Shown in pieces: positions 37,573 to 51,557 of a DNA stretch of 64,000 nucleotides. Positions within the stretch are counted from its first letter, which is position 1, and each line of letters opens with the position of its first letter. Below the pieces are notes generated by a model. That model ran no database searches. It was not told the DNA's origin and worked only from the letters and a program-made list of their open reading frames with translations. The translations under genes were made by a program, and so were the position numbers. The stretch is from Escherichia coli (GTDB lineage Bacteria; Pseudomonadota; Gammaproteobacteria; Enterobacterales; Enterobacteriaceae), in assembly GCF_024298765.1 (NCBI RefSeq), contig NZ_CP101210.1, one strand, 5' to 3'.

Positions 37573-37718
37573 AATTCTCTCGTTCTGATGACAGGTCAGA
37601 TCCGCTTCACCTGATGAAGCGGTTAGGGGAGTGCCCCCACTTTAAGGGCGGGCATTGTAGCGCTGTGGGGGGATCTGGTAAAGCGCCGGACGCCAACAAC
37701 CCACGCCCGGCATCGTAA

Positions 37719-38051
37719 TTACGTATTGTCTTTCACCGTCTGGCTTGTGCCATTGGCTTTAACGGAGGCAATCCCGGTTTCACGAGATTGCGCGGTGGCG
37801 TACATCTGGCTGGAGCCGATAATTTGATGATTAGCGGCTTTCAGATTGAAATAGAATTTGCCGTTACTTGCCGTTTTTTTCTCATAGCGTTCTTCTTGCG
37901 GGCTGTTGCTACGCACCGACGCGATGCCCTTTTCCGCAGAGGCTTTTGAGGTATAAAGCTCGCTGGTGAGGATAGTCTCACCATTGCCCGCTTTTAGCAC
38001 AAACCGGAACTGATTATCACTGCTCTTACTGAGTTCAAACCAACCAGCCAT
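37719..38051 (-). CDS. yegP: YegP (UPF0339 tandem-repeat protein)
   Basis: Start set at MAGWFELS (38051), 110 aa; two internal repeats. Confidence 0.75.
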   Translation of the reverse strand: MAGWFELSKSSDNQFRFVLKAGNGETILTSELYTSKASAEKGIASVRSNSPQEERYEKKTASNGKFYFNLKAANHQIIGSSQMYATAQSRETGIASVKANGTSQTVKDNT

Positions 38052-38241
38052 AATGACTCCTTGATTGAAATTGTGTATCGAAAACAGCATCTAAAGGTGC
38101 TGTTTACCGATTAAAGTATGAGCGATTTTCTGATGCCTGCCAGGGCGGAGAGATAATGTCAGTTTGCTGACCATGCGTGGGATAATGTTGCCGGATCTGG
38201 TCTGAACGCCATCTCCGGCTAACAAAATAATGTCGCTAAAA

Positions 38242-38964
38242 CTAAACGATGCGGCAGGCGTCGGCTTCCCAGCGGTAACCGACGCCATAAACGGCGCGGA
38301 TAAATGACTGTTCGGCGTCGAGAGATTCCAGCTTGCGGCGCAGGTTTTTAATGTGGCTGTCGATGGTGCGGTCGGTTACTACGCGGTAGTCGTCATAAAG
38401 ATGATTGAGCAATTGCTCGCGGGAGAACACTTTTCCTGGTTCGTGAGAGAGCGTTTTCAGCAGACGAAATTCCGCAGGCGTCAGGTCAAGCATTTTACCG
38501 CGCCATGAAGCCTGAAAACGACCTTCGTCGATAATCAACGGGCTTTCAGCATCCTGTTGCTGCAACTCGCGCTGCGGTTTGCAACGGCGCAAAATGGTTT
38601 TGACGCGCGCTACCACTTCCCGTGGGCTGTACGGCTTACAGATATAATCATCTGCGCCAATCTCCAGCCCCAGCAGGCGATCGATCTCTTCGATTTTTGC
38701 CGTCACCATCACGATCGGAATGTCAGAAAAACGACGAATTTCCCGGCACAGCGTCAGGCCATCGGTGCCAGGGAGCATCAGATCTAACAGGATCAGATCC
38801 GGTGGTGTCTGGCGCACATACGGCAGTACCTGATCGCCGTGGCTGATAAGCGTCGGCGCATAGCTCGCAGCACGCAGATAATCAATGAGCAACTGCCCCA
38901 GCTTCGGTTCATCTTCCACGATCAAAATACGCGGTGTGTTTTCGTCGATTGGTAACTCGGTCAT
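38242..38964 (-). CDS. baeR: Two-component response regulator BaeR (OmpR family)
   Basis: 240 aa; receiver domain plus winged-helix. Confidence 0.95.
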
Positions 38965-40364
38965 ACTTCTCTCTGTAAATCCCGTTCCAGCGGTAACTCT
39001 ACTGTAATGCTTACCCCGCCAAAAGGCGAATGGGCAGCAATAATGCGACCATTATGTGCTTCAACAATGTTCAGGCAAATCGCCAGCCCCAGCCCGGAAC
39101 CGCCGCTGGCACGGTTGCGGGAACCTTCGGTGCGATAAAAACGTTCAAACAATTTTTGTAGCTGATCGTCACTGACACCTGGCGCACTGTCGGCAAAGGT
39201 CAGTCGCACCGTTTTGTCGCGCTGCCCGGCAGAGATTTGCAGGCTGCCGCCGCTGTCAGTGTAGCGCAGGCTGTTTTCCAGTAAGTTATTGAATAACTGC
39301 ATTAAACGGTCGCGATCGCCAAATACGGTAATACTGTCTGGCAGGGAAAATTGCAGTTTCAGGCCACGACTGGCGAATCGTTCGCGAAATGCGCCGCCCG
39401 CCACTTCCAGCAGTGGGATCAAATCTACCGGTGCTTTTTGATAGGCGAGAGCGCCTTCATCAGACATCGACAACTGATGGAGATCGTCAACCAGTTTGGT
39501 CAGTGTACCGACCTCCGCCTGTAAAGACGCCACCGTCTCCGGCGTGAATTTACGCACGCCATCCTGAATGGCTTCCAGTTCACCGCGCAGCACCGCTAAT
39601 GGCGTACGCAGTTCGTGAGAAATATCGGCCATAAAATCGCGCCGCATTTGCTGGTTTTTCTCCAGTGTGCTGGCAAGCTGGTTGAAGTCTTGCGCCAGTT
39701 TGCCCAGTTCATCTTCACTGGTGGGCGTTACGCGGGTAGTGAAATCGCCCGCCGCCAGTTTGTGCGTGCCATCGACAAGTCGTTTTACCGGTGCCAGTAA
39801 ACCGCGCGCCAGCAGAAAAGTGGCAAGTGCCGCGAGTAACGTTGCCAGGGCGACAATCAACCAGCTGGTTTGCCGCTGTTGTTTATCGAAATTGATATCA
39901 GTATTGCGCGTTAACCGCTCAACGGGGGAGGCGATCACCGCGCCCACTTCCGCACCGTTGACCAGAATGGGTCGCCGTGTACCGTCAGGTGGAATCGGCG
40001 CTCGTGGACCAACCAGCACTTTGTTGTTTTGATCAACCACCCAGAACTGGGTACGCCAGCCGTGCGGTGGCATACCCGGGCCGGGTTTATCTTCCGAATT
40101 ATCGTGTTCAAATGAACGCAGGATCTGAAAGACAAAGCGATCATTGTTGCGCAGGAAGCGCCAGTTGCCATGCTGCGCATACTGCTCGCCAAGCGCATCA
40201 CTTAACAGTTGTAATCGCTGTTCATTACCATGCTTGATGTAATCAATAAAGCCACGCTCAAAACTGATACGCACCGCCCAGTGCATACTGATCAGCAAGA
40301 CAATGCAGGTGGCGAAAATCGCCAGAAACAGTTTGCCGGTAATACCAGGTCGCCAGAACTTCAT
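38961..40364 (-). CDS. baeS: Sensor histidine kinase BaeS
   Basis: 467 aa; H-box [12 protein letters not shown] and ATPase motifs; stop overlaps the baeR start. Confidence 0.95.
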
Positions 40365-41776
40365 TGCGCGCTCCTTTTTCGCCGCGAAATAGCTACATTT
40401 TGATGCGTATCGTTCGGCACTCTGGCAAAGATGAACGCCGGAAGGGCGATGATAAACGCCATGCTAAGCCAGGTGTACATAAAGACGGTTTGTGTGGTGC
40501 CGCTGTCGACGCTGACATGCTGCGAACCAAAAAGTCCCAGCAACAGCCCGGCGATGGTGACGCCGATACTCATCGACAATTGCATAATCATCGACAGCAG
40601 GCTGTTTCCGCTGCTCGCCAGATTGTCCGGGAGATCTTTCAGCGTCAGGGTGTTCATGGAGGAGAAACGCGTCGAGTTGACCATCCCTTGTAAAAACAGG
40701 ACGAACGGCAAAACGTAGTACCAGCCCAGCAGAGCGGTAGTCATAAACAACAGGGTGACCAGCGACAGACCCAGCGTGGTCGCTACCAGTACCCGACGAT
40801 AACCAAAGCGATTCACCACCTGTACCACAATTCGCTTCATTCCCATGCTGCCAAGCACCATCGGGATCATCATCAGTCCGGCATGAAACGGCGAGAAACC
40901 GAGGCCAATTTGCAGGAAAACCGGTGTCATAAAGGGCAACATGCCACTGCCAATACGTCCGGCAAAGCTCCCCGCCAGGCCCAGCGAAAAGGTACGAGTA
41001 CGGAACAGTTTCAGACTGAACAGGGCACGGTTGTTATTTCTGGCGTGCAGCAGATAAAGCACCAGTGCCACCACGCCAACTGCGACCAGGCCTGCAATCG
41101 TCAGCGGCGATAAACCTGTACCTTTACTGCCGTCCAGCGCCAGGGTTAATACCGCCATGCCAACCGCCAGCAATAAAAATCCGGAGAGATCAAAGCGCCG
41201 CGTCTGCATGGTGTAGTTTGGCATTAACAGCAATGTGGCGATCGCACCGATAATCCCCACCGGAATGTTGATCAAAAAGATACAGTGCCACGATGCGTAC
41301 TCCACCAGCAGACCGCCGAGCGCCGGACCGAGCAGCGGACCGACCTGACCGGGTAACGTGACAAAGGTCATCGCCGCCATATATTGCTCGCGCGGTACGA
41401 TTTTCATCACCGTCAATCTGCCGACCGGCACCATCATCGCGCCGCCAACGCCCTGTAACGCGCGTGCCAGCAACAGTTCGTTCAGCGTGCCGGAAAGCGC
41501 GCAAAACAGTGAACCGAGAGTAAACAGCACGATGGCGGTAAAGAAAATATTGCGCACGCCGACTTTGTCCGCCAGCCAGCCGCTGGCGGGCAGCATCACC
41601 GCCACGGTCAGCACATAAGAGACAATGACCATGTGCATATGCAACGGACTTTCCCCGAGGCTTTGCGCCATTGAGGGAAGGGCGGTGTTTACGATGGTGG
41701 TGTCCAGCGACTGCATAAAGAAGCCGAAAGCCACAATCCACAATTGCCAACGGGTGCTGTCGGGAAGATCTGTCAT
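40361..41776 (-). CDS. mdtD: MFS transporter MdtD
   Basis: 471 aa, 14-TM MFS profile; stop overlaps the baeS start. Confidence 0.9.
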
Positions 41777-44700
41777 TTACTCGGTTACCGTTTGTTTAGG
41801 TTTACGCGAAAAACGCAGCCGCAGACGGTCGAAAAAGAGATACACCACCGGCGTGGTATACAGCGTAAGGAGCTGGCTCATTACCAGTCCGCCGACAATG
41901 GTGATCCCCAGGGGTTGCCGCAGCTCCGAGCCGTCGCCGCCCGACAATACCAGCGGCAGCGCACCAAACAGCGCCGCCAGGGTAGTCATCATAATCGGGC
42001 GAAAACGCAGCAGACAGGCCTGGAAAATAGCTTCCTGCGGCGTCAGGTTACCGTGCCGTTGGGCTTCAAGCGCAAAATCGACCATCATAATGGCGTTTTT
42101 CTTCACGATGCCGATTAATAGCATGATCCCTATCAGGGCGATTAGGCTGAACGGGGCATTGAACAGCTCCAGCGCCAACAGCGCTCCAACGCCCGCCGAG
42201 GGCAGGGTGGAGAGAATCGTCAGCGGATGTACGTAACTCTCGTAAAGGATACCCAGCACGATATACACCGTGGCGATGGCGGCGATAATCAGGATCACCT
42301 GCGAGTTCATCGTCTCCTGGAACACCTGCGCCGTGCCGGCAAAACTGCCGCGCACCGTCGAAGGCACACCAAGCTGGGTCATTGCGCGATCGATCGCCGC
42401 ACTGGCGTCCGAGAGCGATTTTCCGGTCGGCAGGTTAAACGAAATGGTCGAGGCCGCCGATAATCCCTGATGATTCACCGATAGTGGGGCATTCGCCGGT
42501 TGCCATTTAGCGAAATACGACAGCGGGATCGCTTTGCCTTCGTTATTGATAACGAACATTTTTTCCAGCGCACTGATGTCCTGGGTATAGCGCGGATCCA
42601 CTTCCATCACCACTTTATACTGGTTCATCGGCTGGTAAATGGTCGAGATTTGCCGCTGACCGAAGGCGTTATTTAACAGACTGTTGGCGGCTTGTACGTC
42701 GATTCCCAGCCGTGCCATGGTGTCGCGGTCGTAAACCAGATTCATCTCCGCGCCGTTATCCTGCTGATCGGAGTTCACGTCCGCCAGTTCCGGCAACGTC
42801 GCCAGTTTTTTGCGGATTTTCGGCTCCCATTCTCGCAGTGCCGCCAGGTCGTCGGATAACAACGTGTACTGGTAGCTGGCGTTCGACTGACGCCCACCAA
42901 CGCGAATATCCTGTACCGCCATCAGGAACAGATTCGCCCCCGGTTCTTTCGCCAGTTTTACGCGCAGACGGTCGATAATTTGCTGCGCCGTTTCGCTGCG
43001 TTCGTCGCGTGGCTTGAGGGTGATAAACATCATCCCGCTGTTCACTCGCGAACCGCCTGTAAAGCCGGTGACATTATCCACTGCCGGATCGTCACGGATA
43101 ATTTTCATGAAATCCTGCAACTTGCCGCGCATCGCCTGAAACGAAATACTCTGATCCGCCTGTATCCCGCCCATCAACACGCCGGTGTCCTGCTCCGGGA
43201 AGAAGGTTTTCGGGATCGAGATATATAGCCAGATATTCAAAGCAATGGTGCCAAGCAGCACCACGCCCACCAGACGGGTATGATTGAGCACCCATTTCAG
43301 TGACTTACCATAGCCTTGTTGCAGGGCTACCAACATGCGACCAAAACCACGCAGTCGCTTTTGCTCGCGCGGCTTGCTGGCTTTCAGCATCCAGCCACAC
43401 ATCATTGGCGTTAATGTCAGAGAAACCAGCAACGAAATACCAATGGCGACAGAAAGCGTCACGGCAAACTCGCGTAACAGTCGGCCCGGCAATCCGCCCA
43501 TCAACAGCAGCGGCAGGAACACCGCCACCAGTGACAGACTCATCGACAGCACCGTAAAGCCGACTTCGCGAGTACCTTGCAGTGCGGCTTGCAACGGTTT
43601 CATTCCCGCTTCCAGATGACGTGCAATGTTTTCCAGCACCACGATGGCGTCATCCACCACGAAACCAGTAGCAATGGTGAGCGCCATCAGCGAAAGATTA
43701 TTGAGACTGAATCCGCAAAGGTACATCGCCGCAAACGTACCAATCAGCGAAACCGGCACCGCAACGGCGGGAATAATAGTGGCGCGACCCGAGCGCAGGA
43801 ATAAAAAGACCACCAGAATCACCAGCGCCACCGAGATAATCAGCGTTTGTTCGACTTCCTCCAGCGAGGCGCGAATGGTGGGGGAGCGATCCTGGGCAAT
43901 TTGCAGATCAATCGCCGCCGGAATGGTCTCCTGCAACTCCGGTAATTTTGCCCGGATGCTGTCTACCGTCTGGATAATATTGGCTTCCGGCAGCTTGCGG
44001 ATCATCAGCAAAATAGCCGGTTTGGCGTTGGTCATCCCGGCGTTGCGCACATCCTGCACTGAGTCGGTCACCGTCGCCACATCGCCCAGACGAACCGCGC
44101 CGCCGTTGTTGTAGTGAATAATCAGCGGCTGATATTCAGCGGCGGTTTTCAGTTCATCGTTGGTCTGGATCTGCCAGCGGTGAGTGCCATCTTCCAGCGC
44201 CCCCTGCGGTTTACGCACGTTGGCATTGCTGATGGCAGTGCGTACGTCGTCCAGCGACACGCCCTGATTAAACAGCGCCTGCGGGTTCAGCCCGACGCGC
44301 ACGGCGGGCAGCGAGCTGCCGCCGACATCGACATCACCGACACCGTCGATTTGCGAAATCGTCGGAGCCAGCTGCGTCGAGGCGAAATCGTACAGTTCAC
44401 CCTGCGAATAAGTATCGGATGTCAGCGTGAGGATCATAATTGGCGCATCCGACGGGTTCGCTTTGCGATAGGTCGGGCGGCTGGGCATCCCACTGGGCAG
44501 CAAACTTTGTGCAGCGTTGATCGCCGCCTGCACATCACGCGCTGCGCCGTTGATATCCCGGTCAAAATCAAACTGCAAAATAATACGCGTGCTGCCGAGC
44601 GAACTGCTGGAGGTCATTTCACTGACTCCGGCAATGCGCCCAAGTGAGCGCTCCAGCGGCGTGGCAACGGAAGACGCCATTGTTTCTGGTGACGCACCGG

Positions 44701-44854
44701 GCAGCGAGGCGCTGACCATAATCACCGGAAAATCGACCTGCGGCAGCGGGGCGACCGGCAGCATACGGAAGCCCAGTATGCCGCACAGGGTAATGGCAAC
44801 CGACAGTAAAATCGTCGCCACCGGACGGTAAATGAAGAGGGCAAAAAACTTCAC
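41777..44854 (-). CDS. mdtC: RND multidrug efflux pump subunit MdtC
   Basis: 1025 aa, RND permease. Confidence 0.95.
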
Positions 44855-47800
44855 TTACGCCTCCTCTTCATGACGGGCAAAGCGGCTTTTGGTCCACAAT
44901 GCCAGGCGGTCGAACAGCAGATAAATCACCGGCGTGGTGAACAGCGTCAGCACCTGGCTGACAATCAGGCCGCCGACCATGCCGATACCTAACGGACGAC
45001 GCAGTTCCGCGCCGACCCCGGTACTCAACATCAGCGGCAGCGCGCCAAGCAGAGCCGCCAGGGTGGTCATCAGGATCGGACGAAAACGCAACAGACAAGC
45101 CTGGTAGATTGCATCGCGCGGCGACATGCCTTGCTCGCGCTCAGCAGCCAGCGCGAAGTCGATCATCATGATGGCGTTCTTCTTCACGATACCGATCAGC
45201 AAAATAATGCCGATAATCGCAATCACATCCAGTTCGCTACCGGCAATCATTAACGCCAGCAGGGCGCCAACACCTGCCGTGGGTAGCGTCGAGAGAATGG
45301 TGATCGGGTGAATAAAGCTCTCGTACAGAATGCCGAGCACGATATACATCGCCACCACCGCCGCGACAATCAGCCAGACAGTGCTGCCCAGCGCCGACTG
45401 GAAGGCGAGGGTGCTGCCCTGGAACTGCGTGGTGATATCCACCGGCAGATTCAGCGTCTTTTCGGTGTCCATAATCGCCTGCACCGCATCGCCCAGCGAA
45501 TAGTTATCTGGCACGTTAAAAGAGATGGTCGTTACCGGGAACTGATCCAGATGGTTGATGGAAAGCGGCGCAAAACGCTGTTCAACTTTGGCAATTGAGC
45601 TTAACGGCACCACGCCGCCGTCGCTGCTGGTCAGGCGAATGGTATCTAGCGCCGCAAGCCCTGGGGTATTTTCGGTGTTGTGCTCCAGCACCACGCGATA
45701 CTGGTTGGCCTGAGTATAAATAGTGGAAATCAGCCGCTGACCAAACGCGTTGTACAGGGCGTTATCGACATCCGCCATGCTGATCCCCAGACGGCTGGCG
45801 CTGTCGCGATCAACATTGACATACGCCACCAGCCCTTTGTCCTGCCAGTCGCTGGAGACATCAGAAAGCTGTGGCAGTTGCTGGAGTTTTTCCATCAACT
45901 GTGGCACCCAGGTACTGAGCGCATCCAGTGACGTGGCCTGCAAGGTAAACTGGTACTGGGTGCGGCTGACCTGAGTATCAATAGTCAGATCCTGCGTTGG
46001 TTGCAGGAAGAGATCGACGCCCGGCACTTTATCTACCGCCGTTTGCAGACGGGCGATGACTTTTTGCACCCGATCATCACGTTCATCCAACGGTTTGAGG
46101 TTGATTTGTAAACGTGCACTGTTCAGCGACGGGTTAGTGCCATCAACGCCAACAAATGAGGTCAGGCTTTGCACTGCCGGATCCTGCAAAATCACGTCCG
46201 CGACCTGGCGTTGTCGCTGGGCCATATTGGCAAAGGAGCTGGATTGCGGTGCCTGCAAAGTGCCCTGAATAATGCCATTGTCCTGTACCGGGAAGAAACC
46301 TTTCGGAATGAACACCCACAGCAGCACGCTAAGCAGCAGCGTGCTGAGTGCCACGCTTAAGGTCAGCCACGGATGATTCAGCACTTTCGCCAGTCCACGA
46401 CCATAGGCGGCGATTATCCTGTCGAACATTTTTTCCGAGGCACGGGAGAAGCGGTTCTGTTTACGCAACGACTCCTGGCTGAGCATCCGCGCGCACATCA
46501 TCGGTGTCAGGGTCAGCGACACCACCGCTGAGATCAAAATCGCTACCGCCAGGGTAATAGCAAATTCGCGGAACAGCCGCCCGACGATATCGCCCATAAA
46601 CAGCAGTGGGATCAACACCGCAATCAGTGAGAAGGTCAGCGAGATAATGGTAAAGCCGATTTCACCTGCGCCCTTGAGCGCCGCCGCCAACGGTTTTTCG
46701 CCTTTTTCGATATAGCGGGAAATGTTTTCGATCACCACGATGGCGTCATCGACCACGAATCCGGTGGCGATAGTTAACGCCATCAGTGTCAGGTTATTGA
46801 TTGAAAAATCGAGAAACACCATAACCGCGAAAGTGCCGATTAACGACAGCGGTACAGCAACACCGGGAATGATGGTCGCCGGAATATTGCGCAAAAACAG
46901 GTAGATAATCATGACTACCAGCGCGATAGCCATCATCAATTCAAACTGAGTATCATCGACGGATGCGCGGATATTGGTGGTGCGATCGGAAAGCACTGTC
47001 ACCTTCACCGATTTCGGCAGACTCTCGGTGAGCTGTGGCAGCATCTGCCGGATGCTGTCGGCGGTGGAGATAATGTTAGCACCGGGCTGGCGCTGAACAT
47101 TCATCACAATGGCCTGTTCTTTGTTCGCCCACGCGCCGAGCCAGCTGTTTTCTGCACCTTGCTCTACAGTTGCGACATCGCCCAGACGAATTGGCGCGCC
47201 GTTCTGGTAGGCGATGATTAGCTGGCGATACTCTTCGGCGGATTGCATCTGGTCGTTCGCGGAAAGCGTGACCGCACGGGAAGGGCCGTCGAGGCTACCT
47301 TTTGCCGAGTTAACGTTAGCGCCGGTAATGGCGGTGCGCACGGTTTCGCTGGTCAGGCCGAGGGCGGCAATCGCCTGAGCGTTAAGTTTGACGCGAACAG
47401 CCGGACGCTGACCGCCGGAAAGCGTCACCAGGCCGACGCCGGAAATCTGCGAGATTTTCTGCGCGACGCGGGTTTCCACCATATCTTCCACTTGCGTCAT
47501 CGGCATGGCGGTTGAGGTGACGGCGAGCGTCATGATCGGCGGATCTGCCGGGTTCACTTTGCTGTAAACCGGCGGGTTAGGCAGATCGCTCGGCAACAAG
47601 TTGGTCGCAGCGTTAATCGCGGCCTGCACTTCCTGCTCGGCGACATCGAGCGGTAATGTTAGCTGGAACTGCAAAGTGATAACTGACGCACCGCCGGAAC
47701 TTTGCGACGACATCTGTTTCAGGCCAGACATCTGCCCGAACTGGCGTTCTAGCGGCGCGGTAACGGCAGAGGTCATGACATCCGGGCTGGCACCTGGGTA

Positions 47801-47977
47801 GAGCGTGACCACCTGAATGGTCGGATAGTCCACTTCCGGCAGCGCCGAAACGGGCAGGGCGCGATAACCGATAATCCCGGCGAGTAAGATCGCCACCATC
47901 AGCAGCGTGGTGGCCACAGGACGCATAATAAACAGGCGCGACGGGCCGCCTGTGCTGCTCGGGGGTAACACCTGCAT
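44855..47977 (-). CDS. mdtB: RND multidrug efflux pump subunit MdtB
   Basis: 1040 aa, RND permease paralogous to MdtC. Confidence 0.95.
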
Positions 47978-49224
47978 CAGGAGAGTGCTCCTTTTTTCGC
48001 GTATTCGCGGCTGGTGGCTTTCTCTTCCGGAGTAGTGGCGCTCTGGGCTTCCACCACTTCCACTTTCGCCCCTTCGGTCAGGCGATCAATGCCGTCTGTC
48101 ACCACGCGATCGCCCGCAGAAATACCTGCACGGATCACCACTTTCTGACTGTCCTGAATGCCCGGCGTCACCAGATGTTTGCTGACCTTGTTTTCGCTAT
48201 TCAGCACCCAGACAAAATGGCCTTCATTGCCCATTTGCAGGGCGGCTGTTGGGATCACTACGGCGTTTTGTTCGGTGTCGACTAACATGCGCGCGTTAAC
48301 AAACTGATTGGGAAACAGCGCATCATCCTGATTATTAAAGCGTGCTTTCACTTTAATCGTACCGGTAGTGGCATCGATTTGGTTATCTAGACTTAACAGC
48401 GTGCCTTCACTTAATTTCTTCGAGTTGGTGCGATCCCAGGCTTCTACCACCAGCGGTTTTCCGGCTTTCTGCGCCTGCACTACGGTAGCGATATCGCTTT
48501 CCGGCAGGGTAAAGACTAAATCGATAGGATGCGTCTGGGTGATCACCACGATCCCGGTGGTATCACCACTGGAGATTTGGTTACCAACATCAACCTGCTT
48601 GAGACCAACGCGACCATCGACTGGTGCGGTAATCCGGCTCCAGTCGAGTTGCAGCTGCGCGCTGGCAACGCTTGCTTCATCAGCCTTAATGGTGCCTTCG
48701 GTTTCACTGACCAGCGCCTGTTGGGCATCCAGCTCCTGGCGGGAAACGAGATTGGTTTTTGCCAGTTGTTGATAACGCGCCAGGTCACGGCGGGCGTTGG
48801 CAAGCGTGGCTTTATCTTTTGCCAGTTGGCCCTGGGCTTGTGCTAATGCAACTTTGAACTGGCTGGGGTCAATTTCTGCCAGTAAATCGCCTGCTTTGAC
48901 CTGCTGGCCTTCCTGGAAATGTAACGCTATCAGTTGGCCGTCCACGCGGCTGCGCACCGTAACGGTATTAGCGGCGGTAATGGTGCCAAGCCCGGTGAGG
49001 TAACGCGGAACTGCCTGTTCTACGGCGGTCGCCGCCTGAACCGGGGCTAATGGGCCGGAACGCATACCACGTCGACCACCCGCTGGCGATTGCTGCGCTT
49101 GTTTCGTCGCCCCTGGGGCTGCACTCCGGGAGTCATTGCGGCCTTGCCAGAACCAGAATGCGGCGATGGCGGCGATAACCACCACGATTACGATTACCCA
49201 ACGGGATTTATAACTACCTTTCAT
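47977..49224 (-). CDS. mdtA: Membrane fusion (periplasmic adaptor) protein MdtA
   Basis: Start set at [12 protein letters not shown] (49224), 415 aa; the listed ORF extends 49 codons upstream with no RBS. Confidence 0.9.
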
Positions 49225-49277
49225 CGTTAAGAGTTTCTCTTCCTGAAACGTTTCGCGGAATGATACTAGTGTAGCCA

Positions 49278-49295
49278 GCCAATAAGGGAGAAAAA
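49278..49295 (-). promoter_or_regulatory. BaeR box upstream of mdtA
   Basis: Minus strand reads TTTTTCTCCCTTATTGGC, matching the BaeR consensus TTTTTCTCCATDATTGGC at 16 of 18 positions, about 55 bp upstream of the mdtA start. Confidence 0.75.
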
Positions 49296-49444
49296 TGGAG
49301 GAATTATGAAACACTGTCGGGAATCGTCTGAATGACGGGCACATTTGCGAGCACGCATCCAGTAATAACACAGGAAACTATTTTATCTACGCGTTAGCGA
49401 TAGACTGCTTGCATGGCGAAAGGAGGTAAGCCGCAGATTTCAGC

Positions 49445-49590
49445 CGGATGCTGAAACGGGAAAGCCCCTCCCGAGGAAGGGGCCTTAAATAAGGAAAGGG
49501 TCATGATGAAGCTACTCATCATCGTGGTGCTCTTAGTCATAAGCTTCCCCGCTTACTAAGACTACCAGGGCGGGGGAAACCCCGCTCTAC
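49445..49590 (-). ncRNA. sibB: SibB-like antisense sRNA (antitoxin of ibsB)
   Basis: Minus-strand promoter TTGACA-17-TACTTT downstream of the ibsB stop, and hairpin GCCCCT...AGGGGC at about 49465-49485 as terminator; fully overlaps ibsB. Ends are approximate. Confidence 0.5.
49503..49559 (+). CDS. ibsB: Ibs type I toxin peptide (18 aa)
   Basis: RBS AAGGAAAGGG then ATGATG...; translation MMKLLIIVVLLVISFPAY. Confidence 0.75.
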   Translation: MMKLLIIVVLLVISFPAY

Positions 49591-49847
49591 CCTCACTCCT
49601 GAAAGTATGCCTTCACGATAAGATTGTCAATCCGCAGGCTTTGTAGTCTGCGATCCTGCCAGCAAATATTCTTTGCGAGTCGTTACGCAATAATCACAGA
49701 GGAAACTATTTTATTCACGCGTTAGCGATAGACTGCATTCAGGGCGAAAGGAGGTAAGCCGATGATTTCAGCGGGACGCTGAAACGGGAAAGCCTCTCCC
49801 TGTACTGCACCCATTTTGTTGGACGATGAAATGGAATAGCCCCTAAT

Positions 49848-50369
49848 ATGTCAAAGCCAAAATACCCTTTTGAAAAGCGCCTTGAAGTCGTGAATCACTA
49901 CTTCACAACTGATGATGGTTACAGGATCATCTCGGCACGTTTTGGTGTCCCCCGAACCCAGGTCAGGACATGGGTTGCCCTCTATGAAAAACATGGAGAA
50001 AAAGGTTTAATTCCCAAACCTAAAGGCGTTAGTGCTGATCCAGAGTTGCGTATTAAGGTCGTGAAAGCTGTGATCGAGCAGCACATGTCCCTTAATCAGG
50101 CTGCTGCTCACTTTATGCTTGCTGGTAGTGGTTCTGTAGCCAGGTGGCTGAAGGTCTATGAAGAGCGCGGAGAAGCTGGTTTACGCGCGCTCAAGATTGG
50201 CACCAAAAGAAACATTGCAATATCAGTTGATCCAGAAAAAGCGGCATCAGCATTGGAGCTGTCAAAAGACCGACGCATTGAGGATCTTGAAAGGCAAGTT
50301 CGATTTCTTGAAACGCGGCTTGTGTATCTAAAAAAGCTGAAAGCCTTAGCTCATCCCACGAAAAAGTGA
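49848..50369 (+). CDS. insJ: IS150 OrfA (InsJ) transposase DNA-binding subunit
   Basis: 173 aa, HTH-containing IS3-family OrfA. Confidence 0.9.
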   Translation: MSKPKYPFEKRLEVVNHYFTTDDGYRIISARFGVPRTQVRTWVALYEKHGEKGLIPKPKGVSADPELRIKVVKAVIEQHMSLNQAAAHFMLAGSGSVARWLKVYEERGEAGLRALKIGTKRNIAISVDPEKAASALELSKDRRIEDLERQVRFLETRLVYLKKLKALAHPTKK

Positions 50370-51217
50370 AAGTACTCAACGAGCTAAGGCAGTTTTATCC
50401 TCTTGATGAGCTTCTCAGGGCTGCGGAGATACCGCGCAGTACGTTTTATTACCATCTAAAGGCTCTCAGCAAGCCTGACAAGTATGCGGACGTTAAAAAG
50501 CGTATTGGTGAGATTTATCATGAGAATAGAGGCCGATACGGATACCGTAGGGTAACGCTGTCTCTTCATCGAGAAGGGAAACAGATTAACCATAAAGCTG
50601 TTCAGCGCCTGATGGGAATCCTCTCACTGAAGGCAGCGATTAAGGTCAAGCGATACCGCTCTTACAGAGGAGAGGTAGGGCAAACCGCCCCCAATGTTCT
50701 CCAAAGAGATTTCAAGGCTACGCGGCCAAACGAGAAGTGGGTTACCGATGTTACTGAATTTGCAGTCAATGGGCGCAAGCTGTATTTGTCTCCAGTAATA
50801 GATCTCTTCAACAACGAAGTTATTTCTTACAGCCTTTCGGAAAGACCAGTGATGAACATGGTCGAGAATATGCTCGATCAGGCATTCAAAAAGCTTAATC
50901 CTCACGAGCATCCTGTTCTGCACTCTGACCAGGGATGGCAGTATCGTATGAGAAGATATCAAAATATCCTTAAAGAACATGGTATTAAACAAAGCATGTC
51001 CAGAAAAGGCAATTGTCTGGATAATGCTGTGGTGGAGTGTTTCTTTGGAACCTTAAAGTCGGAGTGTTTTTATCTTGATGAGTTCAGTAATATAAGCGAG
51101 CTGAAGGATGCTGTTACGGAATATATTGAATACTACAACAGCAGAAGAATTAGCCTGAAATTAAAAGGTCTGACTCCAATTGAATATCGGAATCAGACCT
51201 ATATGCCTCGTGTTTAA
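50366..51217 (+). CDS. insK: IS150 OrfB (InsK) transposase catalytic subunit (DDE)
   Basis: 283 aa, DDE/integrase core; normally expressed as an OrfAB fusion by -1 frameshifting. Confidence 0.9.
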
Positions 51218-51243
51218 CTGTCCAACTTTTTGGGGTCAGTACA

Positions 51244-51400
51244 CCCGGAGAAGAGGGCTTTTAATAAGGAAAGGGTTATGATGAAGCACGTCATCATACT
51301 GGTGATACTCTTAGTGATTAGCTTCCAGGCTTACTAAGAACACCAGGGGGAGGGGGAAACCTCTCCCTAACCCTCACTCCTGAAATTATGTCACTCCGCC
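51244..51400 (-). ncRNA. sibA: SibA-like antisense sRNA, 3' region interrupted by IS150
   Basis: Minus-strand promoter TTGACA-17-TAATTT downstream of the ibsA stop; its expected terminator (by comparison with the sibB copy) is where IS150 sits. Ends are approximate. Confidence 0.4.
51278..51337 (+). CDS. ibsA: Ibs type I toxin peptide (19 aa), separated from its native leader by IS150
   Basis: RBS AAGGAAAGGG then ATGATG...; translation MMKHVIILVILLVISFQAY. Confidence 0.7.
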   Translation: MMKHVIILVILLVISFQAY

Positions 51401-51557
51401 CTTAGTGTCAATCGACGGCTCTCCGTTCTTGCGAGGCGAATAGCAAAATTTTCTGCGCCGCCGGGCCTAATTCTGAAAGTTTCTTCGTTTGTTCTTATTT
51501 CATTATTGCAGTCGGTATGATACCGGACCTCAATAATTCTCTAAGAAAGGATTTCTT

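What the first reader, a model, noticed from the sequence alone, without database searches (positions are those of the whole stretch)
49372..49700. Intact ibsB/sibB type I toxin-antitoxin unit next to the BaeR-regulated mdtA promoter
The 18-aa hydrophobic peptide (MMKLLIIVVLLVISFPAY) has a strong RBS and a convergent antisense promoter plus a terminator hairpin on the opposite strand. It lies about 280 bp from the mdtA start and about 210 bp from the BaeR box, so antisense or leader transcription could interact with envelope-stress-induced mdtABCD transcription on the same minus strand.
Basis: partly seen in the sequence, partly recalled or inferred. Interest (0 to 1): 0.35.

Follow-up and report, generated by a model that had tools for sequence, protein, structure and literature searches.

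The report
Known ibsB/sibB toxin-antitoxin locus
This is the ordinary, already described E. coli ibsB/sibB small-toxin/antisense-RNA pair in its usual place upstream of mdtA, and public K-12 RNA-end data give no support for the suggested cross-talk with mdtA.

Summary
Window 49503-49559 (+) encodes MMKLLIIVVLLVISFPAY, identical to E. coli K-12 IbsB. The opposite strand matches Rfam SIB_RNA (RF00113) at 142 bits against a gathering score of 56. By K-12 coordinates SibB runs 49594->49459 (-) and covers the whole ORF and its ribosome-binding site. The sibB promoter, the terminator hairpin, the BaeR box (17 of 18 bases) and the stated distances (279 and 208 bp) all check out. The 207 bp on the ibsB 5' side (49296-49502) occur in 5,408 of 5,426 complete E. 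coli genomes, so this is a core, annotated, well-studied type I toxin-antitoxin unit.

The proposed interplay with mdtA is not supported. In published K-12 data SibB ends at its terminator with a 1-minus-readthrough statistic of 0.95-0.98. The weak residual transcript ends 48 nt upstream of the BaeR box. No held paper mentions both sibB and mdtA.

Two side observations stand out. No sigma-70-like promoter for ibsB is recognisable, which fits reports that its mRNA is nearly undetectable. The neighbouring sibA/ibsA unit is split by an IS150 inserted in the SibA terminator loop. That arrangement is shared by only 74 of 5,426 genomes.

Novelty: already known. Interest: low.

The parts
49503..49559 (+). 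ibsB ORF: 18 codons plus stop, MMKLLIIVVLLVISFPAY
   Evidence: identical to K-12 IbsB. RefSeq annotates an Ibs family toxin at the same place in a genome identical over the locus.
49490..49495 (+). ibsB Shine-Dalgarno-like UAAGGA, 7 nt upstream of the AUG
   Evidence: Sequence. Invariant across the strains aligned.
49459..49594 (-). SibB antitoxin sRNA (136 nt by K-12 coordinates). It covers the whole ibsB ORF and its SD.
   Evidence: Rfam RF00113, 142 bits. K-12 sibB 2153646-2153781 mapped without indels. Fold -62.5 kcal/mol, z = -4.4.
49602..49630 (-). sibB promoter: -35 TTGACA (49630-49625), 17-bp spacer, -10 TACTTT (49607-49602), +1 G at 49594
   Evidence: Family alignment and my own scan. 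+1 G for sibB stated in PMC12956327.
49461..49486 (-). SibB terminator hairpin (11-bp stem, 4-nt loop) followed by UUUCCCGUUUC. The same DNA forms a hairpin in the ibsB 5' UTR.
   Evidence: K-12 primary 3' terminus 2153783 = window 49457, R = 0.95-0.98.
49437..49457 (-). Second hairpin directly after the SibB terminator. It is 8 bp with a 5-nt loop here and 9 bp with a 3-nt loop in K-12.
   Evidence: The substitutions at 49445 and 49449 relative to K-12 fall in it.
49491..49491 (-). Position equivalent to the dominant Term-seq 3' end of SibB in K-12 (2153749), giving the short form of about 104 nt
   Evidence: The short and long Sib forms are described in PMC4147584.
49405..49439 (+). Position homologous to the mapped ibsC promoter and start site: CTGCTT, 16-bp spacer, TAAGCC, expected +1 near 49439. 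It matches only 2 of 6 bases in each hexamer.
   Evidence: Alignment. ibsC mRNA has an 18-nt 5' overhang beyond SibC. No sigma-70-like site of at least 7/12 on the + strand of 49330-49510.
49343..49343 (-). Position equivalent to the weak 'orphan' Term-seq 3' end in K-12 (2153897), where residual read-through from sibB ends
49278..49295 (-). BaeR box TTTTTCTCCCTTATTGGC of the mdtA promoter
   Evidence: 1 mismatch; 0.3 matches expected per window at up to 3 mismatches. Consensus quoted in PMC3799227.
47977..49224 (-). mdtA coding sequence (AUG at 49224)
49344..49671 (.). First unit (ibsB/sibB) of the tandem SIB duplication, period 328 bp
   Evidence: the repeat finder D1: 49344-49472 against 49672-49800, 84% identity, spacing 328.

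Best explanation
The region is the canonical chromosomal ibsB/sibB type I toxin-antitoxin unit of E. coli. It is the mdtA-proximal copy of the tandem sibA-sibB ('QUAD1') duplication between yegL and mdtA.

Shown here:
- An 18-codon hydrophobic ORF identical to K-12 IbsB lies on the + strand.
- An approximately 136-nt structured sRNA gene (SibB) lies on the - strand and overlaps the whole ORF and its ribosome-binding site.
- SibB has its own strong -35 box and a stable terminator hairpin.

Inferred from published work on the family (SibC/ibsC, SibD/ibsD and Salmonella IbsA), not tested here:
- SibB is made constitutively and in large excess, and is bound by ProQ.
- SibB pairs with the rare ibsB mRNA through two recognition regions, one in the ORF and one over the translation initiation region.
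- Pairing blocks ribosome binding and exposes the duplex to RNase III. This also yields the short form of SibB, about 104 nt.
- If IbsB were made, it would insert in the inner membrane and depolarise it, or inhibit FoF1 ATP synthase as reported for Salmonella IbsA.

Its position next to mdtA is a matter of synteny. SibB transcription is largely stopped by its own terminator about 160 bp before the BaeR box, and mdtABCD is driven from its own BaeR-dependent promoter.
For: - Peptide identical to K-12 IbsB.
- Rfam SIB_RNA 142 bits against a gathering score of 56.
- Only 6 substitutions and no indels relative to K-12 across 49225-49800.
- Fold z = -4.4, with the Rfam consensus architecture.
- Promoter geometry shared with all five K-12 sib genes.
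- The same gene order mdtA / Ibs toxin / Ibs toxin in the four genomes whose annotation was read (K-12, CP048107, BEC1-S17, G6/7). Their ibsB ORFs are intact and 18 codons long, with variation concentrated in codons 4-5.
- The 207 bp between the BaeR box and the ibsB AUG are present in 5,408 of 5,426 complete E. coli genomes.
- Residues Lys3 and Leu11, reported as functionally required positions in Ibs toxins, are present.
- Mechanism from PMC2943612 and PMC4147584.
- SibB binds ProQ.
- SibB is abundant and the ibsB transcript nearly undetectable.
- SibB 3' ends in K-12.
Against: - IbsB toxicity is labelled only 'putative' in the K-12 annotation. I found no direct test of IbsB or of SibB-on-ibsB repression in the papers I could read.
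- No sigma-70-like ibsB promoter is recognisable, so the toxin half may be nearly silent.
- The SibB terminator has a poor U-tract (UUUCCCGUUUC) and failed the simple terminator scan.
- All expression data come from K-12, not from this strain. This strain differs at 49485 inside SibB and at four positions just downstream of it.
Confidence: 0.93

Rival explanations
1. Cross-talk reading. Strong constitutive SibB transcription is co-directional with mdtA and upstream of it. It would read through into the mdtA promoter region, or the divergent ibsB promoter would interfere with it, and so modulate basal or BaeR-induced mdtABCD expression.
For: - SibB and mdtA are on the same strand, and the SibB 3' end lies 162-164 bp from the BaeR box.
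- The terminator U-tract is weak.
- A small amount of same-strand RNA does extend past the terminator to K-12 2153897.
- Sequence variation in the ibsB-mdtA intergenic region has been found host-informative.
Against: - The TRS statistic of 0.95-0.98 at the SibB terminus means little steady-state signal downstream.
- The read-through 3' end carries 0.16-0.25% of the SibB peak and lies 48 nt before the BaeR box, so most residual transcripts stop before the promoter.
- Two consecutive hairpins follow SibB.
- ibsB mRNA is nearly undetectable, and no ibsB promoter is recognisable.
- No held paper links sibB and mdtA.
Confidence: 0.06
2. Silent-toxin reading. ibsB is no longer expressed at a meaningful level because it lacks a functional promoter. 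SibB would then be retained for another reason, for example cross-repression of ibsA or simply as an abundant ProQ ligand.
For: - No sigma-70-like promoter on the + strand upstream of ibsB. The position homologous to the mapped ibsC promoter matches only 2 of 6 bases in each hexamer.
- The ibsB transcript is nearly undetectable.
- IbsB is annotated only as 'putative'.
- ibsA mRNA is reported to be recognised by non-cognate Sib RNAs.
Against: - The ORF, start codon and SD are intact in the window, K-12 and two further genomes. The only non-silent changes are in codons 4-5, and there are silent third-position changes elsewhere. This looks like purifying selection on a coding sequence, although the overlapping sRNA also constrains these bases.
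- Toxin mRNAs of type I systems are typically scarce when the antitoxin is present.
Confidence: 0.2
3. Chance reading. A short hydrophobic ORF and hairpins arise by chance in an intergenic region.
For: An 18-codon ORF alone is not evidence of a gene. The mechanical list gives 45 ORFs of at least 20 aa in 3.5 kb.
Against: Rfam E = 2.2e-30. Identity to an annotated K-12 gene pair. The flanking 207 bp are conserved in 99.7% of complete E. coli genomes.
Confidence: 0.005

Closest known systems
E. coli K-12 ibsB (b4668) / sibB (b4437, formerly RyeD / QUAD1b)
   Same: Identical peptide. Same length and position of the sRNA relative to the ORF. Same promoter and terminator. Same neighbours (mdtA on one side, sibA/ibsA on the other).
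   Different: One substitution inside SibB: 49485, T here and A in K-12. It lengthens the terminator stem from 9 to 11 bp. Four substitutions fall at 49434-49449, just downstream of the SibB 3' end, and shorten the second hairpin by one pair. About 9% of records (478) are at least 99% identical to this allele over 49296-49502.
SibC/ibsC and SibD/ibsD (the experimentally dissected family members)
   Same: Same Rfam family and same antisense layout. Same sib promoter geometry (-35, 17-bp spacer, -10). ORF of 18-19 hydrophobic residues.
   Different: - ibsC and ibsD have recognisable, mapped promoters (TTGTGT-16-TACGAT; TTGCGT-17-AACAAT), while ibsB has none at the homologous place.
- SibB starts with G and is not NAD-capped, unlike SibC, SibD and SibE.
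- IbsB is one residue shorter.
Other chromosomal type I systems with cis-antisense antitoxins (hok/sok, ldr/rdl, symE/symR)
   Same: A small toxin mRNA repressed by an abundant antisense RNA that blocks translation.
   Different: In Ibs/Sib the antitoxin spans the entire ORF plus the ribosome-binding site. No leader ORF or mRNA-processing step is known for this family.

Membership tests
Ibs/Sib type I toxin-antitoxin (Rfam RF00113 SIB_RNA plus Ibs toxin) | sRNA matches the SIB_RNA covariance model above the curated gathering score | tested here: met
   142 bits against 56, E = 2.2e-30, full-length model match 1-147 at 49488-49630 (-).
Ibs/Sib type I toxin-antitoxin (Rfam RF00113 SIB_RNA plus Ibs toxin) | 18-19-residue hydrophobic ORF on the opposite strand, with ORF and ribosome-binding site lying wholly inside the sRNA gene | tested here: met
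   ORF 49503-49559 and SD 49490-49495 lie inside SibB 49459-49594. The peptide is identical to K-12 IbsB.
Ibs/Sib type I toxin-antitoxin (Rfam RF00113 SIB_RNA plus Ibs toxin) | Basic residue at position 3 and Leu at position 11 of the toxin | tested here: met
   K3 and L11 in MMKLLIIVVLLVISFPAY. The positions are described as required or conserved in bioRxiv 10.1101/2025.05.26.656083.
Ibs/Sib type I toxin-antitoxin (Rfam RF00113 SIB_RNA plus Ibs toxin) | Autonomous sib promoter and intrinsic terminator | tested here: met
   TTGACA-17-TACTTT with +1 G, homologous in all five K-12 copies. 11-bp terminator hairpin. K-12 3' terminus maps to window 49457. The simple consensus scan missed both.
Ibs/Sib type I toxin-antitoxin (Rfam RF00113 SIB_RNA plus Ibs toxin) | Toxin gene has its own promoter and a detectable mRNA | tested here: inconclusive
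   No sigma-70-like site of at least 7/12 upstream on the + strand. The homologous site is degenerate. The transcript is 'nearly undetectable' in K-12. No start-site data set could be reached.
Ibs/Sib type I toxin-antitoxin (Rfam RF00113 SIB_RNA plus Ibs toxin) | Over-expression of the peptide is toxic, and the cognate Sib RNA rescues | not testable with these tools
   K-12 annotation says 'putative toxic peptide IbsB'. Toxicity is shown for other members.
BaeR-activated mdtA promoter | Match to the BaeR box consensus TTTTTCTCCATDATTGGC just upstream of mdtA | tested here: met
   17 of 18 bases at 49295-49278 (-), 54 bp upstream of the mdtA AUG. Consensus quoted from Nishino 2005 in PMC3799227.
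IS150 (IS3 family), for the neighbouring insertion | About 1.44-kb element with orfA/orfB joined by a programmed frameshift, terminal TGTACTG...CAGTACA, and a 3-bp target duplication | tested here: met
   49801-51243 = 1443 bp. orfA 49848-50369 and orfB 50366-51217. CCC duplicated at 49798-49800 and 51244-51246 relative to the uninterrupted K-12 sequence. RefSeq annotates 'IS3-like element IS150 family transposase, programmed frameshift'.

The most novel reading that the evidence does not exclude
The residual read-through from the strong, constitutive sibB promoter would supply a BaeR-independent trickle of transcription into the mdtA promoter, or occlude it. This read-through is seen in K-12 as a weak 3' end 48 nt before the BaeR box. 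Strain-specific changes might matter: here, a longer terminator stem, a weakened second hairpin, and IS150 in the upstream sibA unit. Together they would tune basal mdtABCD efflux expression.
Probability: 0.06. Interest if true: 0.35.

Novelty: already known. Interest (0 to 1): 0.07.

Why it matters
It matters little as a discovery. The ibsB/sibB pair is annotated in K-12, has an Rfam family, and SibB serves as a model ProQ ligand. The check is useful mainly as a negative result: the proximity to the BaeR-controlled mdtA promoter is conserved synteny, and published K-12 RNA 3'-end maps indicate that SibB transcription is largely insulated from mdtA.

The more informative feature is next door. 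A lineage-restricted IS150 insertion removes the terminator (the proposed ProQ-binding end) of SibA and separates ibsA from its upstream region. It is a natural variant in which to ask whether a Sib antitoxin needs its own terminator.

Tried and rejected
- The founding paper (Fozo 2008, PMC2597788 / PMID 18710431) and the dRNA-seq start-site paper (Thomason 2015, PMC4288677) are not held. I therefore could not read mapped ibsB or mdtA start sites.
- The Cappable-seq supplement is truncated when stored and does not reach 2.15 Mb.
- The SMRT-Cappable-seq supplements mention none of mdtA, ibsA/B or sibA/B.
- The built-in promoter/terminator scan found neither the sibB promoter nor its terminator. 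Its one hit near mdtA (TTCAGA-18-CATAAT, 49332-49303) would put the BaeR box downstream of the -10, so I do not take it as the mdtA promoter.
- A CpxR-box search (GTAAA-N5-GTAAA, up to 2 mismatches) gave no site between mdtA and ibsB and was barely above chance window-wide (65 found, 50 expected).
- The weak + strand SIB_RNA hit (22.6 bits) and a mir-15 hit inside IS150 are below gathering scores and are dismissed.
- I assumed the window might be strain 201609 (CP048107). It is not. Outside 37685-50000 identity is 93-98% with indels, and that strain's ParDE pair is absent from the window.
- IbsB is too short (18 aa) for the protein-family and homology tools, so membership rests on identity to K-12 and on the RNA model.

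Full report
**What is in the sequence.**
- The + strand of 49503-49559 reads ATGATGAAGCTACTCATCATCGTGGTGCTCTTAGTCATAAGCTTCCCCGCTTACTAA. This translates to MMKLLIIVVLLVISFPAY*.
- UAAGGA at 49490-49495 lies 7 nt before the AUG.
- On the - strand, Rfam's SIB_RNA model (RF00113) matches 49488-49630 over its full length at 142 bits (gathering score 56, E = 2.2e-30).
- A second copy matches at 51263-51411 with 149.5 bits.
- mdtA begins at 49224 on the - strand.
- The BaeR box TTTTTCTCCCTTATTGGC sits at 49295-49278 (-), one mismatch from the published consensus.

**Comparison with K-12.**
- MG1655 annotates yegL, sibA/ibsA, sibB/ibsB and mdtA in this order.
- With IS150 and one copy of its target duplication removed, the window aligns to the K-12 yegL-mdtA spacer without internal gaps. 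In 49225-49800 there are six substitutions: 49319, 49434, 49435, 49445, 49449 and 49485.
- K-12 coordinates therefore transfer directly. SibB is 49594->49459 (-) and ibsB is 49503-49559 (+), and the peptides are identical.
- SibB folds into the Rfam architecture at -62.5 kcal/mol (z = -4.4), with a terminal 11-bp hairpin at 49486-49461.
- Only 49485 lies inside SibB. It lengthens the terminator stem from 9 to 11 bp.
- The four changes at 49434-49449 lie just downstream. Two of them (49445 and 49449) cost one pair of a second hairpin at 49457-49437.

**Promoters.**
- I aligned the window unit with all five K-12 units. This shows a common sib promoter: -35 TTGAC(A/G), a 17-bp spacer, -10 TAATTT / TACTTT / TAAAGT, and a start 8 nt later.
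- For sibB this is TTGACA 49630-49625, TACTTT 49607-49602 and +1 G at 49594. A G start for sibA and sibB is stated in PMC12956327.
- The toxin promoter is a different matter. For ibsC the mapped start lies 18 nt beyond the SibC 3' end, which identifies TTGTGT-16-TACGAT in the alignment.
- At the homologous place ibsB has CTGCTT-16-TAAGCC, matching 2 of 6 bases in each hexamer.
- A permissive scan found no sigma-70-like site (at least 7/12, with A2 and T6 in the -10) anywhere on the + strand of 49330-49510.
- This agrees with the report that ibsA and ibsB transcripts are 'nearly undetectable' while SibA and SibB are abundant (PMC5389530).

**How it works (inferred from the family).**
- Sib RNAs overlap the whole ibs ORF and the ribosome-binding site.
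- Two recognition domains, one in the ORF and one over the initiation region, start the pairing.
- Translation is blocked and RNase III acts on the duplex.
- A long and a short Sib form exist (PMC2943612, PMC4147584).
- K-12 Term-seq puts the dominant SibB 3' end at 2153749, which is window 49491, right after the anti-SD. This corresponds to the short form of about 104 nt.
- SibB is a strong ProQ ligand.
- Over-expressed Ibs toxins depolarise the membrane. Salmonella IbsA is reported to inhibit FoF1 ATP synthase and to need His3 and Leu11. IbsB has Lys3 and Leu11.
- IbsB's own toxicity remains 'putative' in the K-12 annotation.

**Is there cross-talk with mdtA?**
- SibB is co-directional with mdtA and ends 162-164 bp before the BaeR box.
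[quoted passage not shown] Its statistic is R = 0.95-0.98, defined as L/(L+D), that is 1 minus local read-through.
- Term-seq lists one further same-strand 3' end at 2153897 (window 49343). It scores 789-1,217 against about 490,000 for SibB, or 0.16-0.25%. It lies 48 nt upstream of the BaeR box.
- So a little transcription escapes the terminator, but most of it ends before the mdtA promoter.
- No paper in the library mentions both sibB and mdtA.
- The only link found is that sequence variation in the ibsB-(mdtABCD-baeSR) spacer has been used as a host-source marker.
- I rate the cross-talk idea at about 6%.

**Population context.**
- The 207 bp between the BaeR box and the ibsB AUG occur in 5,408 of 5,426 complete E. 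coli genomes. Most copies are 95-99% identical, and 478 records are at least 99% identical to this allele.
- In two divergent strains the ibsB ORF is intact and 18 codons long. Differences are concentrated in codons 4-5 (MMKILII..., MMKWIII...), with silent changes elsewhere.
- This matches the published view that the recognition domains sit in the variable parts of the family.

**The neighbouring unit.**
- The tandem repeat (period 328 bp; 49344-49472 against 49672-49800, 84% identity) is interrupted at 49801-51243 by an intact 1,443-bp IS150 with a 3-bp CCC duplication.
- The insertion lies in the loop of the SibA terminator hairpin, which is also the ibsA 5' UTR.
- SibA keeps 132 of its 144 nt (51375->51244). 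It loses the 3' arm and U-tract of its terminator, now at 49786-49797.
- The next terminator-like hairpin on that strand is inside IS150 at 51200-51166. It predicts a chimeric RNA of about 215 nt that is antisense to the end of the transposase gene.
- ibsA (51278-51337) is cut off from its upstream region and now lies 61 bp downstream of, and co-directional with, IS150 orfB.
- The exact junction is present in 74 of 5,426 complete genomes.
- Published work says cells lacking SibA survive ibsA expression, probably through another Sib RNA. That would explain why the insertion is tolerated.

**Verdict.** The feature is already known, and the proposed regulatory interplay is unsupported by the available data. 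Interest is low.

Noticed in passing
window 49801-51243 (IS150); duplications at 49798-49800 and 51244-51246; SibA remnant 51244-51375 (-); ibsA 51278-51337 (+): An intact IS150 sits in the loop of the SibA terminator hairpin, which is also the ibsA 5' UTR. SibA loses its terminator 3' arm and U-tract. ibsA is separated from its upstream region and placed 61 bp downstream of, and co-directional with, IS150 orfB. The exact junction occurs in only 74 of 5,426 complete E. coli genomes.
   Followed up: partly
window 49330-49510 (+), especially 49405-49439: No sigma-70-like promoter is recognisable for ibsB. The site homologous to the mapped ibsC promoter is degenerate (CTGCTT-16-TAAGCC). The ibsA and ibsB units share about 90 bp of upstream sequence that ibsC, ibsD and ibsE lack.
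   Followed up: partly
window 49748-49782 (+), and the equivalent 49420-49454: In the ibsA unit a perfect SD-like AAGGAGGT is followed 6 nt later by ATG ATT TCA GCG GGA CGC TGA (MISAGR*). This is also present in K-12. In the ibsB unit the ATG is CAG here and ACG in K-12. Whether this stretch is transcribed on the + strand is unknown.
   Followed up: no
window 49434, 49435, 49445, 49449, 49485: Five of the six differences from K-12 in the spacer cluster within 52 bp around the SibB 3' end. One lengthens the SibB terminator stem from 9 to 11 bp. Two (49445, 49449) remove the top pair of the following hairpin, and the other two (49434, 49435) lie just beyond it.
   Followed up: partly
window about 48723 (-), inside mdtA (K-12 2154517): A published Rho-termination region (Rho score 7.3, p = 2e-23) lies about 500 nt into mdtA in K-12. 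This suggests premature termination of uninduced mdtA transcripts (Adams 2021 supplementary file 2).
   Followed up: no
L007 1037-1093 and L008 1036-1092 (second Ibs unit in strains BEC1-S17-ESBL-07 and G6/7): In these strains the yegL-proximal unit encodes an 18-residue IbsB-like peptide (MMKILIIVVLLVISYPAY; MMKLLIIVVLLVISWPAY) instead of the 19-residue IbsA of K-12 and the window. The two tandem units therefore differ between lineages.
   Followed up: no
window 1-37684 compared with L005 (strain 201609, CP048107): The strain whose ibsB-IS150 region is 100% identical to the window is only 93-98% identical over the aligned stretches upstream, with indels. It carries a ParD/ParE pair between yegQ and yegP that the window lacks. 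The shared IS150 junction therefore sits in otherwise diverged backgrounds.
   Followed up: no
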